Shown here piece by piece: positions 12,366-51,991 of a stretch of DNA of 59,443 nucleotides (its first letter is position 1; the number at the start of each line of letters is the position of its first letter). The stretch lies in contig NZ_CAJXJX010000001.1 of NCBI RefSeq assembly GCF_913055775.1, positions 1-59,443 of the forward strand. Reading direction: 5' to 3'. Both the position numbers and the translations under genes were made by a program. The notes under the pieces are model-generated. The model was not told the DNA's origin. It worked only from the letters and a program-made list of their open reading frames with translations, and did not search any database. Source of the DNA: an uncultured Demequina sp. (GTDB lineage: Bacteria; Actinomycetota; Actinomycetes; Actinomycetales; Demequinaceae).

Positions 12366-13193
12366 TCAGCTCAGCACCGCCGCCGGCGCCGAGTACGTAC
12401 ACGCATTCACCGCGCCCAGCTCGTGCGCGGTCGATCTCTTGAGATCCGCCAGATCCAGCGGCGAGAGCCGGTCGCACACCCAGTCCCAGTGCAGCGACAC
12501 CACGTCCCCCACGGCCAAGCCGTCGACCAGCGCGTGCCCATCACGCCGCACGCGCACGCTCTCCAACACCGCAGCCCCGAGCCCCAGCCGGCGCCCGTTC
12601 CACGTCAGCGGCCGGCTCGCCACGGTGGCGGAATCACCGGTCACAGCAGTCACCTGCCCCCACCGGATCCGGCACCGGTCCAGCACCTCGAGCGGCTCAC
12701 GCCCGTACCCACCGCGCAGCAGCCCTACCCACGGGTAGACCGCAAAAACATGGAAGCTGTGGTGCGGCGTCGCGCCCACGCGCGCGGCCTCCACCAGCCG
12801 CTCGAACTCCTCGCGCGACAAGCGCGGCCTGAAGCGCGTCTCGAGCGAGTCGACGAAAACGGCACCACCGCATCGGCCCAAAGGAGGCCCTCCCAGCCAA
12901 TACGTCCGCACGACGAGCGGGTCCAGCGGCGCGCGCCCCAGGCACTCCGAGATGAGTTCGAGGTACGGCCACGCGCCCTCGAAGCCCTGCGCGACGTGCT
13001 CCAACTCTTGTCCGGAGGCGCCCTCGCTGACGCGCTCGAGCAGCTCGGACGCGCGGTCGGGACCGCAGTAGCCGCGCTCGTTCGGCGGCAGGGCGTAGCG
13101 CCCGAACAGCACGGCGCCGTCCGCCTCGACCGGCGCGGGATCGGCGGTGGGCCGGGTGGCGGTTGCGTCCGGCCGATGCGGGGTGACAGTCAT
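12366..13193 (-). CDS. DUF6390 family protein
   Basis: GAVLFGRYALPPNERGYCGP, AWPYLELI, PHHSFHVF and CRIRWG motifs; ATG overlaps the EamA stop (ATGA). Confidence 0.75.
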   Translation of the reverse strand: MTVTPHRPDATATRPTADPAPVEADGAVLFGRYALPPNERGYCGPDRASELLERVSEGASGQELEHVAQGFEGAWPYLELISECLGRAPLDPLVVRTYWLGGPPLGRCGGAVFVDSLETRFRPRLSREEFERLVEAARVGATPHHSFHVFAVYPWVGLLRGGYGREPLEVLDRCRIRWGQVTAVTGDSATVASRPLTWNGRRLGLGAAVLESVRVRRDGHALVDGLAVGDVVSLHWDWVCDRLSPLDLADLKRSTAHELGAVNACTYSAPAAVLS

Positions 13194-14113
13194 GTCGCAC
13201 CTCGCCTTCCGTACGCGCCCGGCAGGCGCGGGGCGAGCCAGATCATGACGCCCGCCGCGGCGATGAGCGCCAGCCAGGGGGCCGATGCGCCGACGGCCGC
13301 GCCGTCGAACGCGCCGGCCAAGGCGGCGGTCACGATCGCGCCGAGCACCAGCACCGCTGTGACGTCCACCGCGGGCGCCCGCCACAGCGCCTGGTGCCAG
13401 GTGAGGACGTAGCCCGCGAGCAGCACCCCGGTGAGCAGCACCCACCCCCACTGCACCGCGGTGGTCGGCCAGATCGCGCCCAGCGTCCCGGTCGCCGCGG
13501 ACCACAGAAGCAGCGCGAGAGTCCCGCCCGCCATGCGCCAGATCGACACCGTCCAGGGAGTCACGTCGCGCAGGAGCCGCTTGGCGACCACCACCTCGAC
13601 CGCCCACAGCAGAGTCGCGCCGGCGATGAGCGCCGTGCCCACGTCCGCGGCCAGCGCCACGTTGCCCGCGAGCCCGAACTGCGCCACCACGATCAGCGCG
13701 ACCGCGCCCACGTGCCACCACGTGAGCTTCTCCTTGAGCGCGATCACGGCGATCACGGCCACCCAGACGATGAGCGTCTTGTGCAGGAACGCCGCCTGCA
13801 CGGACGCCGTCGACGCCAGCCCCTCGAAGAACAGCACGAACGGCACCGCGCCTCCCAGGATGGCCACGTATGCCAACCCGACCCACTGCCCGGGGCGAGA
13901 CGGGCGGGTCACCGCCACCGCATCGGCGCTGCCCACCGCCCGCGCGAGCACGAACGCCAGCGCGATCACCACCGCCGCCATCGTGTTCTTGGCGGTCGTG
14001 TACGCGGAGGCGGACCCATACGCGGCCACGCCGTTGGAGTTGACCCAGATCGCGACGCCCGAGATCAGCGCGGTCACGCCCGCGAGCGCGAGGCCCCGGT
14101 TGCGCGTGCTCAT
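13190..14113 (-). CDS. DMT/EamA family transporter
   Basis: About 10 TM helices, LFFEGL...LKEKL EamA-type motif; coupled to hypC. Confidence 0.8.
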   Translation of the reverse strand: MSTRNRGLALAGVTALISGVAIWVNSNGVAAYGSASAYTTAKNTMAAVVIALAFVLARAVGSADAVAVTRPSRPGQWVGLAYVAILGGAVPFVLFFEGLASTASVQAAFLHKTLIVWVAVIAVIALKEKLTWWHVGAVALIVVAQFGLAGNVALAADVGTALIAGATLLWAVEVVVAKRLLRDVTPWTVSIWRMAGGTLALLLWSAATGTLGAIWPTTAVQWGWVLLTGVLLAGYVLTWHQALWRAPAVDVTAVLVLGAIVTAALAGAFDGAAVGASAPWLALIAAAGVMIWLAPRLPGAYGRRGAT

Positions 14114-14334
14114 GTCGACGCCTCCTTCCCGCGGATCTTGAGCGCGTCCACGGCCTGCGACTCCGTGAGCCGCTCGAGGGCGAAGCCCGCATGGACCACG
14201 ACCCAGTCGCCGGGCTCGATGTCGTCATCGGCGACGGTCATCTCGAGCACCTCCTGGCGCACGCCGTCGTGCTCGACGATGGCTCTGCCGTCGCGGTGGA
14301 CCTCGATCACCTGGGCGATGGTTCCGAGACACAT
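14110..14334 (-). CDS. hypC: Hydrogenase maturation chaperone HypC/HupF
   Basis: MCLG N-terminus and GDWVVVHAGFA motif; AAGGAGG RBS. Confidence 0.92.
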   Translation of the reverse strand: MCLGTIAQVIEVHRDGRAIVEHDGVRQEVLEMTVADDDIEPGDWVVVHAGFALERLTESQAVDALKIRGKEAST

Positions 14335-14822
14335 GACTCCTCCTTGATGCCTTCTTGGGCGAGCACGTCGGCCACGGCGGCGACGGCAGCGTCAATGTGT
14401 TCGCGTACGGGCACGGACAGGTGCCCGTACGCGAAGGTGCCGGCCTCAACGCCCACGATCGCGACGCGCTCGGGCAGGGTGTCGAGCGCGCGCGACAGCT
14501 CGACCGCGCCCGCGAGCCCGAAGGCGTGGCTCCCGCCGCGGCCGGATGCGGTGAAGGCGTGCGTCGGCAGCGGCGGCGCCTTGGCGCCAGCCTCCATCAC
14601 GCGCACTGTCCCGGGGTTGCGTCCGGACATCACGGCGTCGACCACCACGGCGGCACGCTTGCCCTCCCAGGTGTGCACCAGCGCGGTCGGGTCCTCGCGC
14701 GTGGTGACGGTCACCATGCCCCCAAAGGCCGCGCGGATGCGGTCCGCGACCACCTCGCCGATGGCGTCGTCTCCCCTGTCGGGCGATCCCAGCCCGATCA
14801 CGATCACGTCCCGGGCGCTCAT
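14307..14822 (-). CDS. Hydrogenase maturation endopeptidase
   Basis: VIGLGSPDRGDDAIG, VVVDAV and SHAFGL motifs; ATG overlaps the large-subunit stop. Confidence 0.9.
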   Translation of the reverse strand: MSARDVIVIGLGSPDRGDDAIGEVVADRIRAAFGGMVTVTTREDPTALVHTWEGKRAAVVVDAVMSGRNPGTVRVMEAGAKAPPLPTHAFTASGRGGSHAFGLAGAVELSRALDTLPERVAIVGVEAGTFAYGHLSVPVREHIDAAVAAVADVLAQEGIKEESCVSEPSPR

Positions 14823-16126
14823 GACCGCTCCACCCTCAGGTCCAGGAAGTGGGTCGCGCAGGAGATGCAGGGGTCGTAGTTGCGGATGGCCTCCTCGCAG
14901 CGGTGCGTGAGGGTGTGGTCGTCGAGGTCGACCCACTGCTGTGCGGCGGTGCGGAGGTCGTGCTCGATGCTGGCCTGGTTCTGGCTGGTGGGCGGCACGA
15001 TCTGCGCGTCCTCGATGATGCCGTCGGCGTCGATCCGGTAGCGGTGCCAGATGGTGCCGCGTGGAGCCTCGGACGCGCCCACGCCCTCCCCCGCCCGAGG
15101 CTCCACGGGCACCGACGGCGGGTGGCCGTCCGTCCAGCCGTCGATGATGCGCAGCGCCTCCTCGAACGCATACGCGAGCTCGACGCACCGCACGATGATG
15201 GACTTGAACGGGTTGCGGCAGGTCTCGGCCAGCCCCGCGGCGAGCGCGGCCTCCTGACACCGAGAACTTAGCTGGTCAAAGCTGTTGGAATACCGGGCGA
15301 GCGGACCGACGAAGTACATGCCGCCGTCGAAGGTCGCGTGCAGCGCGTTGGAGTGCTCGACGTGAAACTCTTTAATGTGTGAAGCAATCTCCGCCACCGG
15401 GAAACGCGTGCCGTTCGACGCCACCACCTCGGTCCCGCGCTCAAGCGGATACCACTGCGGGTGGCGCAGGGACACGTAGGTGTACGTCTGCTCCATGTCG
15501 GGGAAGTCGAAGCCGGCGACCAGTTCGACGGCGGCGAGCGCGTCCTCGAGCCCGCGCTCCAGGTCCGGGCGCAACCCCTGCAGCTCCGCGACGGTGGGCA
15601 TCCGGTAGAAGCCGCCCACCTTGACGTTCACGGGGTGGATCGCACGGCCTCCCACCACTTCCATCAGGTCGTTGCCGGCCTTCTTGAGCCGCAGCGCCAT
15701 CTTCACCACGTCGCCGTGCGTCTTGGCCATCTCGATGACGGACTCGTACCCAAGGAAGTCGGGCGCGTGCAGCATGAAGATGTGCAGCGCGTGAGACTCG
15801 ATCCACTCGCCGCAGTACAGCAGGCGGCGCATGTCCTGGATCGCGTCCGTGGTGGTGACGCCGCAGATGGTCTCCATCGCCTCCGTGGACGCCGACTGGT
15901 ACGCCACCGGGCAGATGCCGCAGATCCGCGCGGTGATGTCCGGAGGCTCCGTGTACTTGCGGCCGCGCAGGAAGCCCTCGTAGAAGCGCGGGGGCTCGAA
16001 GATGTTGAGCTTGACGTCGACCACCTGGCGATCGCGGATCTCGATGTGCATGCCGCCCTCGCCCTCGACGCGCGCGAGCATGCCGACGTTGAGAACCTGT
16101 CCGCCGTCCTTCAGCTGATGCGTCAT
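14819..16126 (-). CDS. hyhL: Group 3b [NiFe]-hydrogenase large (alpha) subunit
   Basis: ARVEGEG, L1 RICGICP, EAPRG, L2 DPCISCATH followed by a short cleavable tail. Confidence 0.93.
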
Positions 16127-16953
16127 GACGCGCCTCCCGTCTCGACGGCGTTGCTCGCGGCCTCGAACTCGGGCGCCCCCGCGTTGAAGGTGCGATAGAC
16201 GCGGACGATGTCCGCATCGGCCATGCCCAGTTCCGTCAGCTGCTGGGTGAGGGAGTCCGTGTTGGCGCTGTCCTGCGGGCCGAAGCAGCCGTAGCACCCG
16301 CGCCCATACGACGGACACAGCGCCCCGCAGCCGGCCTGCGTCACGGGTCCCAAACAAGGAGTTCCGGTCGCGATCGGAACACAGAGATTGCCCTTGAGCT
16401 TGCACTCCACGCACACCGAATACGACGGAATGCGCGGCTTGCGGCCGTTGAGGAACGCCGCGAGCACCTCGATGAGCTGCTTCTTGTCCACGGGGCAGCC
16501 GCGCAGCTCGTAGTCGACGTCCACGTGGCTCGCGATGGGCGTGCTCGTGTCCAGCGTCGACAGATACTCGGGGTGCGCGTAGACGATGGACCGGAACTCG
16601 TCGACGTCCGCAAAGTTGCGCAGCGCCTGGATGCCGCCGGCGGTGGCGCACGCGCCGATGGTCACCAGCGTCCCGGACTGCGCGCGGATCTCGTGGATGC
16701 GCTCCACGTCCTCGGGCGTGGTGATGGAGCCCTCGACCAGGCTCAGCTCGTAAGGGCCCTCAACCACGGCGCGGGTGGCCTCGGGGAAGTACGCGATGTG
16801 GACGTTCTCCGCGATGGACAGCAGCTCGTCCTCGCAGTTGAGGATGGAGAGCTGGCACCCGTCGCAGCTGGCGAACTTCCAGACGGCCAGCTTGGGGCGC
16901 GCCGATGCGGGGGCCGGGTTGGCGGTCGCGTGGTCGTGGGTGGCGGCGGTCAT
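16123..16953 (-). CDS. hyhS: Group 3b [NiFe]-hydrogenase small (delta) subunit
   Basis: [22 protein letters not shown] and the C-terminal Cys cluster CVEC...CLGP...CGALCP...CYGC. Confidence 0.92.
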
Positions 16954-16954
16954 C

Positions 16955-17869
16955 TCACAGCTCCCTCACGCTCATGAGCGGCTCGAGCCGGTCGTAGCTC
17001 AGCACGGGGCCGTCGACGCAGATGAACAGCTCGCGCAGCTGGCAGTGCCCGCAGAGGCCTATCCCGCACTTCATGGACCGCTCCATCGACATGCGGATGT
17101 GGTTCGCGGCGACGCCGCGCGCGGTGAGCGCCTGGGCGGACGCGCGCATCATCGCCTCCGGCCCGCACACGAACGCCCACGCGCTGCGTGGGTCGAAGCC
17201 GGCGCGACCGATGAGCTCGGTCACGAAGCCCACGCGACCCTTGTAGCCGTAGGGGGCGTTGTCGACGGTCATCTGGACGTTGACGTCGTTGAGGTCGGCC
17301 CAGCGGCGCATCTCGTCGCCGTAGAGGATGTCGTCGGGGGTCCTCGAGCCGTAGAGCAGCAGGACCTTGCCGTAGGCGTCGCGCTCGGCCAGCACGTCCA
17401 GGATGGCCGGCCGCAGGGGGGCCAAGCCGATGCCGCCGGTAACGAAGACGACGTCCCCGCCCCGCGCATCGGCCGCATCCCAGGTGGTCCCAAAGGGGCC
17501 ACGGACTCCAATCTCGGTGCCGGGCGCGGCATTCACCAGTGCGCGCGTGACGGCGCCGACGTTCCTGATGGTGTGTTCGAGAGGCTCGCCGGCGTCGGTG
17601 CCGCGCGGGTCGCCGGCGATGCTGATGGGCACCTCGCCCACGCCGAACGCGTGGAGCATCGTGAACTGGCCGGCGGCGAAGCGCAGCGGCTCGCCGTCGA
17701 GCGGCTCCAACAACAGGGTGAAGGTGTCGCGGGTGTCCTGGCGCACGCGGGTGATCGCGAAGCGGCGCGGCACCATCGGGGCCGGCGGCGGAGCGAGCGT
17801 GTCCGCAACTGACCCTGCCGCGACGGTCGCGCCGTGGCCGGGTATGGCTGGGTTGCGGATGTCGTCCAT
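16955..17869 (-). CDS. hyhG: Group 3b hydrogenase FAD/NAD(P)-binding (gamma) subunit
   Basis: GQFTML, RGPFG, GGIGLAP, VCGPE and [11 protein letters not shown]...CVDGP [2Fe-2S] motif. Confidence 0.92.
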
Positions 17870-17901
17870 GACACGCCTCCACTTGCGACGCTATGCCGCT
17901 G
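17856..17901. repeat. 46-bp exact direct repeat, copy 1 (-10, RBS and start of hyhG)
   Basis: CGGATGTCGTCCATGACACGCCTCCACTTGCGACGCTATGCCGCTG, identical to 19989..20034. Confidence 0.95.
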
Positions 17902-17915
17902 AGGTAGAAGCGCCA

Positions 17916-17929
17916 GGGACCAAGGTCCG
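17916..17929 (-). promoter_or_regulatory. DosR/DevR-like box upstream of hyhG
   Basis: GGGAC-CAAG-GTCCG against the consensus core GGGAC-N4-GTCCC; same spacing to ATG as the hyhB copy; -10 TAGCGT at 17888-17893. Confidence 0.65.
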
Positions 17930-18073
17930 GGGAGAGGCGTAGGGGTCACTCGCGGCTGCTTCACGAATTCTTGAAACAGCGTGAGAGCCGTTGTGCAAGA
18001 GCAGGCACGGCGCTCTCCGGAGCGGCGCGCCCCTCGACCTCGCCCCCGTACTCTTGATACTTGAAGAAGGGCG

Positions 18074-18283
18074 GTGAATGGCGTGTCTGGCTACGTGATC
18101 TCGTACCACCGCAAGAGCGGCGCGAGCGAAGTCAAGTCGTTCGAGGGTCCCAACGGTCACCGCGAGGCCTTCGCGGAACGGTTGCGTATCGAGAAGTCCA
18201 ACCACGACCCTGACCTTGAGATCGTGGGCGACTCTCTCGAGTCAGTCAAGCGCACGCATTCGCGATACTTCTCCCGCGCCTGA
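18074..18283 (+). CDS. Small hypothetical protein
   Basis: Compact ORF GYVISYHRKSG...DLEIV.DSLESVKRTHSRYF with GC3 bias and a purine-rich upstream segment (GAAGAAGGG); start may be GTG 18083. Confidence 0.6.
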   Translation: MNGVSGYVISYHRKSGASEVKSFEGPNGHREAFAERLRIEKSNHDPDLEIVGDSLESVKRTHSRYFSRA

Positions 18284-18297
18284 CAGCACGTTCGACA

Positions 18298-18732
18298 TCA
18301 CTGAATGTCGAACTCGTCCTCCAACTTGAGGAGCTCCTCGAGGGCCTCGCGCTGCGCGCGCACTCGCTTGGCGCGCAGGTCAGCGACGTCGGCAGTCTTG
18401 ACTCGGGTGTGCGTGCCCACCTTGTGTGAGGCCAGTTCCCCGTCGCGGATCAGCTTCATCAGCGTGGTGCGGCTGACGCCCAACTGCTCGGCAGCCACCG
18501 TCGTCGTGAGCTCCGGCGGCACGGAACCAACCGTGACACTGTGACCATCCGCAACTTCGTGGAGCACGCGCGAGAGGAACTGGACAAAGCCAGCGGAGAG
18601 CTCGGGAGCAGTTTGCAGGTCGAGCGATGCGCCGTGCGCAGGCATCGATCGCTCGAGGAAGTCGACGAGTAGTTGCGCCTCAGCACGCTCGGCCTCGTCA
18701 GCGAACACAGTGGACGATGCGGTCCCAGTCAC
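18298..18732 (-). CDS. Excisionase-family (HTH_17/MerR-like) DNA-binding protein
   Basis: ELTTTVAAEQLGVSRTTLMKLIRDGELASHKVGTHTRV motif; GGGAGG RBS before GTG 18732. Confidence 0.85.
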   Translation of the reverse strand: MTGTASSTVFADEAERAEAQLLVDFLERSMPAHGASLDLQTAPELSAGFVQFLSRVLHEVADGHSVTVGSVPPELTTTVAAEQLGVSRTTLMKLIRDGELASHKVGTHTRVKTADVADLRAKRVRAQREALEELLKLEDEFDIQ

Positions 18733-18762
18733 GGCAGCCTCCCAAGCCACGGTCAAGATACA

Positions 18763-18784
18763 AGTATGCGCGCCTACACTGACA
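18763..18784 (-). promoter_or_regulatory. PafBC/RecA-NDp-like promoter of the excisionase-family gene
   Basis: Minus strand reads TGTCAG-TGTAGGCGCG-CATACT, 30 nt upstream of the GTG. Confidence 0.6.
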
Positions 18785-18814
18785 TATGCAACTGAGTGCC
18801 AGTTACAACTGACA

Positions 18815-20002
18815 TTACCCTGCTTCTGCCGTGGCCGGAGTCGGAGCGACGCCGCGTGCGCGTCCCAGCGCCGCGGCCTCCTCCACGATGTCGATGCCCG
18901 CGGGGCACCACGTGATGCAGCGGCCGCATCCCACGCAGCCGAGCATGCCGAACTGGTCCTCCCAGGAGGACAGCTTGTGGGTGATCCACTGGCGGTAGCG
19001 CGACTTCGCGGACTCGCGCATGGGTCCGCCGTGGATGTAGCTGAACTGCTCGGAGAAGCACGAGTCCCACACGCGGTGGCGCTCGGCGTTCTCTCCGGTG
19101 AGGTCGGAGACGTCGGAGACGGTGGTGCAGAAGCACGTGGGGCATACGAGCGTGCAGTTGGTGCACGCGAGGCAGCGGGTAGCGATCTCCTCCCAGCGGG
19201 AGGATTCGGCTGATGCGCGCAGAGTGTCCGCGACCGTGTCCGTGTCGATGGCTCGGCTTTGTTGCGTGGCCGCGTGGGAGGTGACGGCGAGGGCCTCGTG
19301 CGCGTCGTCGAGGGTGGCCGGCGTGGTGTCGATCGCGTCCGCGACCTCGAGGCCGGCGGCGCTGCCGACCTCGAGGACAAAGTGGTGCAGGTCGGGGTCG
19401 CTCGGGGCGATCTCCGTGAGCAGCAGGTCATACGACGGTTCGCCGGTCTGGGGGTTGGTGTCGCTGGGGCGCGGGCCGGTGCCCATGGAGGCGCAGAAGC
19501 ACGTCGCGGCCGGGTCCGAGCAGGCGACCGCGACCACGAAGGTGCCGTCGCGGCGGGCGGCGTAGTGGGCGTCGATGTACTGTCGGCTGGCGAGCACAGT
19601 GTCGTGGATCTGGACGGCGCGCAGGTCGCACGAGCGCGTGCCGAGGAGTGCGATCTTGCGGCTGGTGTCGGGGGTGTCGCGCTCGACGGTGAAGTGGTCG
19701 TCCTCGCCGTTGTCGCGGCGGCCGCGCCAGATGACCTCCTCCGCCGGGAAGAACACGGGCTTCGAGGACTGGGCGGGGGCGGCGAAGCCAAAGTAGGCGC
19801 CATCGCCGCGCTCGCGCAGGCGGTACCGGGCGGGGTCCTGCTGGTCCCCGACCCCCTGCGGGAGGTCGGAGGCCGCACGGATCTCGCCGGTGACGATCGC
19901 ATCGCCCCGGACCGTGGGCCCCATCACCTGATAGCCGCGCTGCCGCAACTCGTCGATGAGGGCGCCGAGCCCCGATGTCGAGAGGATTCGGATGTCGTCC
20001 AT
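18815..20002 (-). CDS. hyhB: Group 3b hydrogenase 4Fe-4S dicluster (beta) subunit
   Basis: [32 protein letters not shown] and [12 protein letters not shown] motifs. Confidence 0.92.
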
Positions 20003-20034
20003 GACACGCCTCCACTTGCGACGCTATGCCGCTG
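19989..20034. repeat. 46-bp exact direct repeat, copy 2 (-10, RBS and start of hyhB)
   Basis: Identical to 17856..17901. Confidence 0.95.
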
Positions 20035-20048
20035 TGCGCGAGGCGCTA

Positions 20049-20062
20049 GGGACGTTGGTCCC
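20049..20062 (-). promoter_or_regulatory. DosR/DevR-like box upstream of hyhB
   Basis: Perfect core palindrome GGGAC-GTTG-GTCCC; -10 TAGCGT at 20021-20026. The group 3b hydrogenase of M. smegmatis is known to be DosR-regulated. Confidence 0.75.
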
Positions 20063-37262: not shown

Positions 37263-39062
37263 TCAGGCACCTTCGCTGTGCGCTTCGGCCTCGATCATGA
37301 CGCTGTCTGGCGGCACCATGCCTCGGGTTACCATCCACTCCATCAGACGCTGAACGCCGTCGACCTTCTTCTTCGCATCCTGCGTGAGCTTCTTGCCCTG
37401 CCCGGAAGAGTCGTTGAGCTCCTCGAAGGCAAGCAGCTCGTCGGTCGCTTCGATGAGTGCATTGCCGGCAGCTACCCACTCAAAGCCCGGTGCCGTGTCG
37501 ACTCCAATGCGTTCGGCGACGAGGCGTGCCGCGAGGAGGTCTCGGAGTCCCGCGAGAACCGCCTCCGACGATTGAGCGCCGAGCGTTCTCCCGAGCGTGA
37601 CCGCGGCGCCACTCCCTACGCCGGCGACGCCACCAACCACCATCAGGCCGCCTGCGATGCCTCCCGGCCCCAAGGCCGACAGCCCTGCAAGAAAGGCTGC
37701 TCCTCCGGCAAGACCTGCAGGTGCAGCCGCGACGGCAAGAAACGGTGCTGCCACCACCGCCACACCTGCCAGAACAACTGCCGTTGCCAGCGTCGCGACG
37801 CGCTTGACTGCCCGTCCCTGTTCCTCCCCAACTGTCTTGACCTCGTCGACCGCACTCTCGACGATGTCGACGTAATTCTCGAGAATGCCAAAATCCATCG
37901 CTACTTGGCGACGCACTCCGGGCGCGACTTTGGAGTAGTCCACGCTGAATGGCAGTAAGGGATCCACTCGATAAAGGTGGACCAAGAACATCGGGATCTG
38001 TTCCGGAGCAACCCTGCCGTGCAGCCAAGGCTTCATGTCTCGGTCGAGGTCATTGAAGATCGGCCGCGACCCAGAATCCTCTGCGGCCTTCAGCGCCTGC
38101 GAGGCCAACCACTCGCGTATACCACGGACACGTTCCCGCTTGTCTTTAGCGCCTCGCTGAGGCGAAGTCTGCAGAGCCATCTCAATGCGGTAGGAGTGCT
38201 GCATCGTGACAGCGGTCAGGAGGTCGCTGCCCGACCACTCGTCCCGATCGGGACCTTCCCTAGACGGCACGACCCCGCGCTCTCGGACACCATAGAGGGC
38301 GTTGCCGATCTCCCTGCAAATCTGCGGCTGCTGCAGCGCATGCGCAACGCCGTGGTCCCTGAATCGCCCATTGAGCGCAAGATTGACAGCCTCCGGGATC
38401 GGGCCGCCAATCCCGCCCGCGTTCGGCACGAAGTCCAACGAGTTGTACACGTTGACCCACGCTTCCACCGCCGCAAGGTTCGCGTGCTTGTACGACTTCT
38501 CTGCGAACTTTCTGAAGGTTTGGCGCCCGAGCGGCGAGCCGAGAGTCAGGAGCAGCTTGATATTCATGCGCTCCGGAAGTTGACCGAGCAATTCCAACGC
38601 GACCGCGGTCCCAAGAGAGTGCGCGATAACGACCCAGTCACCTTCAGCGTTTCCGAGGCCGTGGAGTACACGCCTGATGATAGTTGGATGGCTGTCGGCG
38701 GCGAGGAACGCACGTACCTGGGCAAACATCGGGAAGGCCGCCACGCTCACCTTCTCCAGCGTCGCATCGTCCAGCGGCCCTCGGCCGGGAGCAAACCTCG
38801 CACCTGCGATGCGATGCGCCACCACGCTTTGCCGCGCAGCGAAGTCAGATCTGGCTACACGATCAGTGGCCTCGAGCGGCAATGTCCCTTCATCGCCGGC
38901 GCCGGTCGAGAGCAGATCGTCGTAGTGCGGTTCCACGGCATCCGTCAACTCAACGGGCGAACGCTGGCAGTCCGCCAGCGCCTCATTCAATGGCGTGCGC
39001 CAGTCCACTACCTCAGCACTATTGATTCCGTGCAGGAAAAGCACCCTCACTTGCTCTGCCAT
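37263..39062 (-). CDS. Uncharacterised alpha/beta-hydrolase (lipase-like) with a C-terminal Gly/Ala-rich hydrophobic hairpin
   Basis: FLHGI oxyanion motif, AHSLG nucleophile, candidate Asp (LDFVP) and His (DHG); long hydrophobic stretch AVVLAGVAVVAAPFL...GLSALGPGGIAGGLMVVGG. Confidence 0.75.
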   Translation of the reverse strand: MAEQVRVLFLHGINSAEVVDWRTPLNEALADCQRSPVELTDAVEPHYDDLLSTGAGDEGTLPLEATDRVARSDFAARQSVVAHRIAGARFAPGRGPLDDATLEKVSVAAFPMFAQVRAFLAADSHPTIIRRVLHGLGNAEGDWVVIAHSLGTAVALELLGQLPERMNIKLLLTLGSPLGRQTFRKFAEKSYKHANLAAVEAWVNVYNSLDFVPNAGGIGGPIPEAVNLALNGRFRDHGVAHALQQPQICREIGNALYGVRERGVVPSREGPDRDEWSGSDLLTAVTMQHSYRIEMALQTSPQRGAKDKRERVRGIREWLASQALKAAEDSGSRPIFNDLDRDMKPWLHGRVAPEQIPMFLVHLYRVDPLLPFSVDYSKVAPGVRRQVAMDFGILENYVDIVESAVDEVKTVGEEQGRAVKRVATLATAVVLAGVAVVAAPFLAVAAAPAGLAGGAAFLAGLSALGPGGIAGGLMVVGGVAGVGSGAAVTLGRTLGAQSSEAVLAGLRDLLAARLVAERIGVDTAPGFEWVAAGNALIEATDELLAFEELNDSSGQGKKLTQDAKKKVDGVQRLMEWMVTRGMVPPDSVMIEAEAHSEGA

Positions 39063-50935: not shown

Positions 50936-51892
50936 CTAGATCTCGATCCCCGCGGCCTCGGCCAGCGTCTCGTTCGCCACCCCATACGGCACGTGGACCC
51001 CCGCCACATGCGTCAGCGCCCCGGTCAGGTGCCCGTCCTGGTCGTCGAAGAACAGGTGCGGTCGCAAGACCTCCAACACGCGCGCCTTCTCAATCCCGCC
51101 CAGGAAGAACGCGTCATTGATGGTCACGCCCCACGAGCGCAGCGACTGCACGGCGCGCTCGTGCGCGGGCGCGGCACGGGCCGTCACCAGCGCGATGCGC
51201 ACGCGCGGCTCATAGTCCGGGTCCTCGGCCTGCAGGGCGGCCTCGATGCGCTGGATCCGATTCAGATCCTCGACCAGCGGCTTGAGCAGCCCGGGCGCGT
51301 GGGCGACGTCGCGCTTGGCGACCTCGTTCGCCACGAAGCCCTCGAGGCCGTCGGTCTGGAACACGCGCTCGGACTCGTCCGTGGCGAGCACCGCGTCGAA
51401 GTCAAAGGCGATCCTCAGATCCCGGTCCCCCACCTCATACGCCGCCGAGTTCGGCAGCACGTGCCCCGCAGGGTGTCCGGCGCGGACGGCGGCCAGCACA
51501 TCGTCCCTGTTCTGCGACAGGAACAGGCTCATGCCCAGCGCCGGGATGTAGTCCAGCGGCGACCGGCCCTGCGTGAAGAACGCGCGCGTCACCGGCAGCT
51601 GATGCGCCTCGATGGACCGCATCACCCTCAGCCCCGTGTTCGCGGCGTTGCGCGACAGCACGATGACCTCCACGAGCGGATCCCGCGGGCGCAGGTCGTT
51701 GAGCTGCAGCAGCCGCTGGATGAACGGGAACGCAGGCCCTGGCTCGAGCGTGACGTCGATGTGCCGGTCCTGGTAGTCCGAGTACGCCGCCACCCCGTTC
51801 TCCTGGAAGAACGCGTCCGACTCCGTCAGATCGAACAGCGCGGAGGACGCGACGCCCACCACCAGCCGGTCGGACAGGTCATAGGCGGGCAA
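50936..51892 (-). CDS. 5'-nucleotidase (PF06189-type)
   Basis: LVVGVASSALFDL, LRIAFDFDAVL, VTARAAPAHER and PHLFFDDQ motifs; TTG start with GGAGG RBS. Confidence 0.88.
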   Translation of the reverse strand: MPAYDLSDRLVVGVASSALFDLTESDAFFQENGVAAYSDYQDRHIDVTLEPGPAFPFIQRLLQLNDLRPRDPLVEVIVLSRNAANTGLRVMRSIEAHQLPVTRAFFTQGRSPLDYIPALGMSLFLSQNRDDVLAAVRAGHPAGHVLPNSAAYEVGDRDLRIAFDFDAVLATDESERVFQTDGLEGFVANEVAKRDVAHAPGLLKPLVEDLNRIQRIEAALQAEDPDYEPRVRIALVTARAAPAHERAVQSLRSWGVTINDAFFLGGIEKARVLEVLRPHLFFDDQDGHLTGALTHVAGVHVPYGVANETLAEAAGIEI

Positions 51893-51991
51893 GAAGACCT
51901 CCAGGGGCGTACGGCGGGACGATGCGCGGGCTGGCTTCCGCGGCGAGGTTCCACGATATCGGTGGCCGCGTGCGTGACGCACCCCGCAGAA

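What the first reader, a model, noticed from the sequence alone, without database searches (positions are those of the whole stretch)
17806..20062. Hydrogenase operon split by an insert and apparently repaired by a duplicated promoter fused to a collapsed hyhB copy
Seen: hyhG and hyhB share an identical 46-bp block (-10, RBS, MDDIR codons). The hyhG leader then reads CCGGCCACGGC...GCAGGG-TCAGTTG, matching the END of hyhB, CCGGCCACGGC-AGAA-GCAGGG-TAATG-TCAGTTG. The old coupled junction (TAATG plus the first codons MSV) still sits orphaned after hyhB at about 18806-18817. Inference: promoter+hyhB+junction was duplicated, the second hyhB was deleted down to about 18 codons and its stop removed. 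This gave hyhG a chimeric N-terminus and restored expression of hyhGSL past the intervening genes.
Basis: partly seen in the sequence, partly recalled or inferred. Interest (0 to 1): 0.75.

Follow-up and report, generated by a model that had tools for sequence, protein, structure and literature searches.

The report
Hydrogenase operon split by old duplication
In about half of the Demequina species that carry this hydrogenase, this one included, the first gene sits apart from the rest and each part has its own copy of one promoter, likely because an old duplication collapsed to a stub and left a slot that now fills with changing toxin-antitoxin and defence genes.

Summary
The 46-bp repeat is real (two copies by read depth) and lies in a 73-bp promoter copy with a DosR/OsdR-like box. 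It is not a private repair. Of 27 Demequina genomes with this group-3b-type operon, 14 are split, each with the second promoter; none of the 13 intact ones has it. Relatives show the stages: intact junction (G066), coupled MDDIR mini-gene (G064), in-frame fusion (10, this one included), promoter directly on the native start (3). Duplication and collapse of promoter+hyhB is therefore supported, but it is old, and the spacer holds variable cargo.

The 'orphan TAATG-MSV' is the hyhB stop plus a predicted operator of the inserted HTH gene, and 0 of 13 intact loci start MSVADT. The exact identity of the two copies here is likely gene conversion. Known processes (duplication then reciprocal loss; recombination hotspots) explain it, and the preserved series is a neat natural example.

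In passing: hypD was not found in 64 genus genomes. The scan reported that HypC-EamA-DUF6390 module before on other DNA, and a duplicated-promoter split [FeFe] operon elsewhere.

The parts
18815..20002 (-). hyhB, beta (Fe-S) subunit of a group-3b-type hydrogenase, 395 aa
   Evidence: Fer4_22; sulfhydrogenase beta / AsrA models below cut-off; single copy in the genome
19989..20062 (-). Promoter copy P1: palindromic box 20049-20062, TAGCGT 20021-20026, GGAGG 20009-20013, start of hyhB
   Evidence: same layout in 27 genus loci; promoter function inferred, not measured
17856..17929 (-). Promoter copy P2: box 17916-17929, TAGCGT 17888-17893, GGAGG 17876-17880, ATG 17869; 17856-17901 identical to P1
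   Evidence: present in 14 of 14 split genomes and 0 of 13 intact
17777..17869 (-). 31-codon chimeric leader of HyhG (remnant of hyhB codons 1-17, then remnant of the old hyhB end/hyhG start); predicted unstructured
   Evidence: in-register identities; alignment to G064 and G066; pLDDT <50 for residues 1-27
16955..17869 (-). hyhG, gamma (FAD/NAD(P)-binding) subunit, 304 aa including the leader
18797..18814 (.).
   Evidence: rank 5 of 2.71 M positions with a matrix from 26 non-window homologue promoters
18774..18791 (.). Second predicted operator, 23 bp from the first
   Evidence: rank 4; a second site at 22-23 bp in 14 of 26 homologue promoters, often weak
18298..18732 (-). Cargo: excisionase-like HTH gene, 144 aa; its usual downstream PIN-domain partner is missing here
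   Evidence: HTH_17 and TIGR01764; downstream genes of homologues, 3 of 3 tested are PIN_3
18074..18283 (+). Cargo: small 69-aa gene without a family match; a 72% identical homologue is in the same slot of G026, next to a RelA/SpoT-domain gene
14819..16953 (-). hyhD (small subunit, 16123-16953) and hyhA (large subunit, ending at 14819; RICGIC and DPCISCATH motifs, C-terminal extension)
12366..14822 (-). Maturation protease, HypC, EamA permease, DUF6390 (rest of the P2-driven unit)

Best explanation
hyhB and hyhG-D-A each sit behind a copy of the same promoter block, an arrangement shared by 14 of 27 Demequina operons, and it likely arose from an old duplication of promoter+hyhB whose downstream hyhB copy collapsed to a stub that fused to hyhG. 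Steps: (1) shown: intact operons exist in 13 genomes and are the rule outside the genus; (2) inferred: a segment holding neighbouring DNA, the promoter and hyhB was duplicated in tandem; (3) shown as preserved stages in relatives, order inferred: the downstream hyhB shrank to a coupled mini-gene, then fused in frame or vanished, which locks the arrangement because each half now holds a needed gene; (4) inferred: both halves stay co-induced under low oxygen through the copied box, so DNA between them is no longer polar and turns over freely (shown: the cargo differs, even in a 93% identical relative); (5) inferred: the hyhB-end/cargo/P2 block moves between lineages, or is lost again, by recombination in hyhB and hyhG; (6) inferred: the perfect 46 bp here is recent gene conversion between the copies. 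The present HTH insert is a late occupant, not the cause.
For: Split in 14 of 27, P2 in all 14 and in none of 13 intact loci. Stages: G066 intact with ATGA overlap; G064 mini-gene MDDIR...AAGAP* overlapping the hyhG start; 10 fusions of 75-135 nt, all in frame without a stop and with no SD-like word before the core ATG; 3 with P2 directly on MTTTAT. This leader matches six others in register (33-35 of 54 nt; hyhB starts 19-25; null maximum 31 of 1,954 windows). One cargo family lies upstream of P1 in 7 intact genomes and inside the gap in 2 split ones; a TacA-GNAT pair lies upstream in 1 and inside in 2. G003's hyhB 3' end switches towards the main split clade (0.89/0.78 vs 0.87/0.64 to its own clade). 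The 46-bp block has 0 differences here against 5-12 in the other ten MDDIR-type genomes and mixes states of sister-clade P1 and of other genomes' P2. Run X2, from another study, has one 1,956-nt contig joining P2, 1,188 other letters, the HTH gene and the hyhB end. All 27 genomes keep hyhB.
Against: The split genomes are not one clade: 5 changes on rpoB, 4 on hyhB and hyhG; monophyly is rejected on rpoB and hyhB, though not on hyhG once G066 is added (p=0.16). A single origin therefore needs transfers or reversions, and only G003 shows a recombination trace; this genome's hyhB end shows none. The cargo families also occur downstream of the operon or in the same region of a genome lacking hyhG, which weakens 'gap = former upstream DNA'. 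The mosaic signal rests on 5 sites. Leaders are GC-rich and low in complexity. No transcript data support either promoter.
Confidence: 0.62

Rival explanations
1. Repeated independent duplications: the promoter+hyhB start is duplicated again and again in this region, and this genome's split arose on its own branch, which would also explain the perfect 46 bp without gene conversion.
For: Split genomes fall in separate clades and this genome is sister to four intact ones. P1 and P2 group together in G032 (97/87 support). G071 has a third, truncated promoter+hyhB copy 18.5 kb upstream of its full hyhB. Under one scoring the leader matches this genome's own hyhB end better than 1,952 of 1,953 gene ends.
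Against: The leader and the upstream part of P2 resemble other genomes' P2 more than this genome's own P1 (0.63 vs 0.44; 0.68 vs 0.63). G003's P2 is closer to foreign P2 (0.82) than to its own P1 (0.67).
Confidence: 0.2
2. Insertion first, repair later: foreign DNA cut the operon after hyhB, and a later duplication of promoter+hyhB restored expression downstream.
For: It gives the same end structure. The operon borders defence and toxin-antitoxin cargo that turns over fast. A two-gene membrane pair occupies the gap in 8 of 14 split genomes and could be the first insert.
Against: It needs two events with a silent interval, whereas a duplication gives gap and promoter in one. No genome has a gap without P2 (0 of 14). 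The claimed orphan junction scores as an operator.
Confidence: 0.13
3. Assembly artefact, or two independently evolved promoters that merely share regulator motifs.
For: The unitig graph of X1 breaks at the 46-bp node, so that run alone cannot phase the repeat.
Against: Twofold depth of the node with equal depth of the flanks; diverged flanks of the repeat; a bridging contig in X2; 13 other genomes with the same order; shared spacer bases and MDDIR codons, which the other box-bearing promoters of this genome lack.
Confidence: 0.03

Closest known systems
SNAP model: duplication, then inactivation of a different needed gene in each copy (PMC7055797; passages read)
   Same: A duplication is fixed because each copy keeps a gene the other lost, which leaves a new gene order.
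   Different: The paper models segments of tens of kb and reports early stages in isolates. Here the unit is small, includes a promoter, and later stages are preserved across species. Selection for dosage is not shown.
Promoter capture by the rnk-citG tandem duplication in Cit+ E. coli (PMC5918244; passages read)
   Same: A tandem duplication puts a promoter and a truncated fusion ORF in front of a downstream gene.
   Different: There a foreign promoter gives new regulation and the duplication collapses readily. Here the operon's own promoter is copied, regulation is predicted to be unchanged, and the state is stable across species.
Integrase-free hotspots renewed by recombination in flanking core genes (PMC5635113; passages read)
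   Same: Rapidly changing cargo between two conserved genes, no integrase among the annotated cargo, and a recombination trace in one flank (G003).
   Different: The flanks are two subunit genes of one enzyme, and the slot appears to exist because of an internal promoter copy.
Operon death by insertion (PMC1480536; passages read)
   Same: Former operon partners remain near each other with genes between them.
   Different: Dead operons there lose co-expression; here both halves keep the same promoter block.
Mycobacterium smegmatis Hyh, group 3b [NiFe]-hydrogenase under DosS/T-DosR (bioRxiv 10.1101/2023.09.11.557286; passages read)
   Same: Four subunits of the sulfhydrogenase type, conserved large-subunit cysteines, and a DosR/OsdR-like box.
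   Different: The operon is split, and hypA, B, D, E and F were not found in this genome.

Membership tests
Group 3b [NiFe]-hydrogenase (HyhBGSL) | Four subunits beta, gamma, delta, alpha of the sulfhydrogenase type | tested here: met
   Best or near-best NCBIfam hits are Shy/Hyd subunits, all below the equivalog cut-offs of those models; Pfam domains fit
Group 3b [NiFe]-hydrogenase (HyhBGSL) | Large subunit with N- and C-terminal CxxC motifs and a cleavable tail, plus a maturation protease | tested here: met
   RICGIC and DPCISCATH with a 9-residue tail; TIGR00072 above cut-off
Group 3b [NiFe]-hydrogenase (HyhBGSL) | Canonical HypA-F maturation genes in the genome | tested here: not met
   Only HypC; hypD, F, A and B not found and hypE only below cut-off; hypD in 0 of 64 genus genomes, controls positive
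Group 3b [NiFe]-hydrogenase (HyhBGSL) | H2 production or oxidation with NAD(P) | not testable with these tools
   needs an assay
DosR/DevR/OsdR-regulated promoter | Palindromic GGGAC...GTCCC-type box upstream of the -10 element | tested here: met
   Both copies; by eye 12 of 16 (P1) and 10 of 16 (P2) identical to the predicted OsdR site AGGGACCTTCGGCCCC listed in PMC5069765. Similar boxes precede the cytochrome bd genes and other redox genes (gene names recalled from sequence, not scanned)
DosR/DevR/OsdR-regulated promoter | Cognate sensor and regulator, binding and hypoxic induction | tested here: inconclusive
   A two-GAF ORF follows the cytochrome bd cluster but has only 329 aa in this assembly; regulator not searched; no RNA data
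SNAP-type rearrangement | Duplication followed by reciprocal loss of needed genes | tested here: met
   One copy keeps hyhB and lacks hyhG; the other keeps hyhG and a hyhB stub
SNAP-type rearrangement | Positive selection for the duplicated state | not testable with these tools
   historical fitness cannot be measured here
Recombination-driven hotspot | High cargo turnover between conserved flanks | tested here: met
   Gaps of 1.0-14.1 kb with differing gene sets; X2 differs from the window
Recombination-driven hotspot | Elevated recombination in the flanking genes | tested here: inconclusive
   A trace in G003 only, of three genomes examined; gene trees otherwise follow rpoB
Integrative mobile element | Integrase/transposase and attachment repeats bounding the insert | tested here: not met
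   No such gene in the window's gap or among 33 of 58 cargo ORFs scanned; a candidate hairpin word proved to be a lineage-wide frequent word

The most novel reading that the evidence does not exclude
The repeat-bounded unit promoter-hyhB-cargo acts as a self-renewing, integrase-free cassette. It can loop out between the promoter copies and re-enter relatives through hyhB homology, regenerating the split and carrying toxin-antitoxin and defence genes, while the need for hyhB selects against its loss. That would make an essential subunit gene the anchor of a defence hotspot inside an operon. G071's extra truncated promoter+hyhB copy and the scattered distribution of split genomes fit this.
Probability: 0.15. 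Interest if true: 0.72.

Novelty: new variant of a known kind. Interest (0 to 1): 0.42.

Why it matters
It offers a small, datable natural series for how a duplication becomes a permanent operon split without loss of co-regulation: intact, coupled mini-gene, fusion and clean promoter transfer all survive in sequenced relatives, several of them apparently from isolates (near-complete genomes in few contigs). It suggests how a neutral landing site for toxin-antitoxin and defence genes can open inside an operon. It also cautions that an exact short repeat in one genome need not mean a recent event. No new biochemistry follows from the split itself; the missing maturation genes are the larger puzzle at this locus.

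Tried and rejected
1. Orphan hyhG start MSV after hyhB: rejected.
2. Leader matching this genome's own hyhB end as proof: not robust across seven scorings.
3. GCATCGTCC/GGACGATGC hairpin as a cassette or att site: rejected; the word occurs inside genes throughout some lineages. Leader similarities resting on it were not used.
4. The first rpoB tree mixed strands and was discarded; redone. G052 was left out of the hyhG tree (frameshifted).
5. The sigma-70 scan found no promoter and no terminator on the operon strand; it is uninformative for actinobacterial promoters.
6. No RNA holder listed.
7. The low pLDDT of the leader may reflect thin alignment there, so it is weak evidence.
8. A third operator near 18751-18768, seen by alignment, did not score.
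9. DUF6390: no convincing solved-structure match (best E 0.055), no paper, Atlas unavailable.
10. Two papers sought by id were not held.
11. Print searches: Demequina + hydrogenase gave 2 listings, neither on this operon by title and abstract start; searches showed no report of this split in their listings. Subscription journals are largely not covered and supplements were not read.
12. Look-up by place in earlier findings returned nothing.
Full report
OBSERVATION. On the minus strand the window reads hyhB (18815-20002), an HTH gene (18298-18732), a small opposite-strand gene (18074-18283), then hyhG, hyhD, hyhA, protease, hypC, EamA and DUF6390. The starts of hyhB and hyhG share exactly 46 bp (17856-17901 and 19989-20034). 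The repeat extends to 73 bp at 88% and has no other copy in the genome, which is 2.71 Mb and 97% complete. The extension holds a GGGAC-N4-GTCC palindrome. Similar palindromes precede the cytochrome bd genes and other redox genes of this genome (names recalled from sequence), and predicted OsdR/DevR sites look alike (PMC5069765, passages). M. smegmatis induces its group 3b enzyme through DosR under hypoxia (bioRxiv 10.1101/2023.09.11.557286, passages). Hypoxic control of both copies is inferred, not shown.

NOT AN ARTEFACT. In run X1 (possibly the source) the 46-bp node has depth 61.9 and the three flanking unitigs 31-32.6; that graph cannot phase the repeat. Run X2, from another study, has one 1,956-nt contig carrying P2 (4 differences in 63 nt), 1,188 other letters where the window has 360, and the HTH gene with the hyhB end (49 differences in 705 nt).

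RELATIVES. The genus is Demequina (titles). hyhG was found in 27 of 64 genus genomes, and all 27 have hyhB nearby. In 13 the genes are contiguous (38-132 nt from the hyhB stop to the hyhG core). In 14, this one included, they are 1.0-14.1 kb apart, and all 14 have a second copy of box, -10 hexamer, GGAGG and ATG before hyhG. Among 61 further loci, nearly all from outside the genus, 50 have one roughly 150-codon gene between hyhB and hyhG (Crp-like by recall), 8 are contiguous, 3 lack hyhB in the DNA held, and none is split.

PRESERVED STAGES. G066 is intact, its hyhB ending AAGAAS* with an ATGA overlap on hyhG. G064 has P2, then a mini-gene MDDIR...AAGAP* whose stop overlaps the hyhG start; this end aligns to the G066 junction. 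Ten genomes have an in-frame fusion with leaders of 75-135 nt, no stops and no SD-like word before the core ATG. G019's leader lies in register with G064's mini-gene and lacks two bases at the old stop/start. Three genomes have P2 directly on a native-type start MTTTAT. Leader codons 6-17 still resemble the hyhB start (MDDIRIPEPLGLDARVA vs MDDIRILEPKGLDALIA; 25 of 36 nt in G019, 20 of 36 here).

(a) The 'orphan junction'. Homologues of the HTH gene occur in 20 of 401 order genomes and 9 of 64 genus genomes, counting this one. A matrix learned from 26 non-window upstream regions gives an 18-bp palindrome of the form TTGCACTTATAAGTGCAA. Its 4th and 5th best matches in the whole genome are 18774-18791 and 18797-18814, 23 bp apart, the spacing of a second site in 14 of 26 homologues. 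The second begins at the base after the hyhB stop and contains the 'MSV' codons. (b) Intact loci start hyhG with MTTA/MTTT, MSTA, MSGAG, MAGVG/MMAGVG, MTSMG or MTATA, never MSVADT (0 of 13). (c) The match of the leader to this genome's own hyhB end is equalled by 1 to 593 of 1,953 gene ends depending on scoring. By contrast the leader aligns ungapped from the ATG with six other genomes' leaders at 33-35 of 54 nt (null maximum 31). The GCGGCAGG in the leader does fall in register with the end of G064's mini-gene, so it probably is an old hyhB end, inherited rather than copied locally. (d) The present insert is not the cause. Gap cargo elsewhere includes HicAB, TacA-GNAT, nucleotidyltransferase-HepT, RES, RelA/SpoT, Wadjet-type genes, a sigma factor set and a membrane pair (33 of 58 ORFs scanned). 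The HTH gene here has lost the PIN partner that follows most homologues.

HISTORY. The rpoB, hyhB and hyhG trees largely agree, and this genome is sister to four intact genomes. The split needs 4-5 changes. Monophyly is rejected on rpoB and hyhB, and on hyhG only without G066. Yet P2 sequences cross clades: G003's P2 is 0.82 identical to foreign P2 and 0.67 to its own P1, and its hyhB 3' end shifts towards the main split clade. Here, the upstream part and leader of P2 resemble foreign P2, while the core is identical to own P1. That core has 0 differences against 5-12 in ten other genomes and mixes two states of G036-type P2 with three of sister-clade P1. The simplest reading is one old origin, spread or reversal by recombination in the flanking genes, and gene conversion here. 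Repeated origin is not excluded: G071, which lacks hyhG, has three promoter copies, one with a truncated hyhB. For duplication first: no gap exists without P2, and one cargo family lies upstream of P1 in 7 intact genomes but inside the gap in 2 split ones. Against over-reading this: such families also lie downstream or elsewhere in the region.

FUNCTION. Predicted: both halves are induced together; HyhG carries a 31-residue leader without predicted structure, of a length comparable to the variable tails of intact relatives, and so probably neutral; inserts between the halves are not polar. Recombination between the copies would delete hyhB, and 27 of 27 keep it, which suggests selection for the full enzyme. 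A caveat: hypD was not found in any of 64 genus genomes, nor hypF, A, B or a true hypE here. Among 50 other genomes, 14 of 15 whose locus carries the EamA cassette lack hypD against 2 of 35 without it (completeness not given, kin not independent). The scan had noted this module on other DNA, which I saw after my own hypD test.

COMPARISON AND VERDICT. The process matches the SNAP model (PMC7055797), promoter capture with a truncated fusion ORF (PMC5918244) and recombination-fed hotspots (PMC5635113). It differs from ordinary operon death, where co-expression falls (PMC1480536). All four were read as passages only. I found no paper on this split in the searches listed under Tried and rejected. 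New variant of a known kind; interest 0.42.

Noticed in passing
window 12366-14822 and genus-wide: The operon ends in protease, HypC, EamA and DUF6390, while hypD was not found in 64 of 64 genus genomes and hypA, B, E, F not in this one. Among 50 other genomes, 14 of 15 with the EamA cassette at the locus lack hypD against 2 of 35 without it. This suggests an undescribed maturation route; the scan reported it earlier on other DNA.
   Followed up: partly
window 20347-45368: A 25-kb defence island directly upstream of P1: RT_UG5-nitrilase reverse transcriptase, a DISARM class I set (DrmD, MI, A, B, C), an unassigned 599-aa ORF (37263-39062) and ZacA-B-C. G083 has the RT, DrmC and DrmA at a similar place.
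   Followed up: partly
L194/L195 (G071:C1 about 1224000-1247000): Decayed locus with three promoter copies: one before a truncated hyhB (codons 1-93), one before full hyhB, and one before an MGDMR leader followed by loss of hyhG, D and A.
   Followed up: partly
window 18774-18814 and L168-L193: A conserved palindromic operator (TTGCACTTATAAGTGCAA type, often paired at 22-23 bp) upstream of actinobacterial HTH_17-PIN_3 modules; not checked against the literature.
   Followed up: partly
G009, G033, G064, G066, G067 loci: A homologue of the window's 5'-nucleotidase gene (50936-51982) is inserted between hyhG and hyhD.
   Followed up: no
loci of G004, G009, G019, G026, G030, G032, G033, G035, G036, G064, G066, G067, G006, G070: The word GCATCGTC/GACGATGC occurs 11-22 times per 20-30 kb, against 1-6 in the other loci and 4 per 20 kb in this genome; possibly a lineage-specific uptake or methylation-related word.
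   Followed up: no
G003, G006, G070, G087 loci: A HypC-like gene lies upstream of hyhB instead of directly after the protease.
   Followed up: no
G000:C85:8573-9562: A two-GAF ORF after the cytochrome bd cluster ends at 329 aa; a DosS-like sensor would normally continue into a kinase domain.
   Followed up: no
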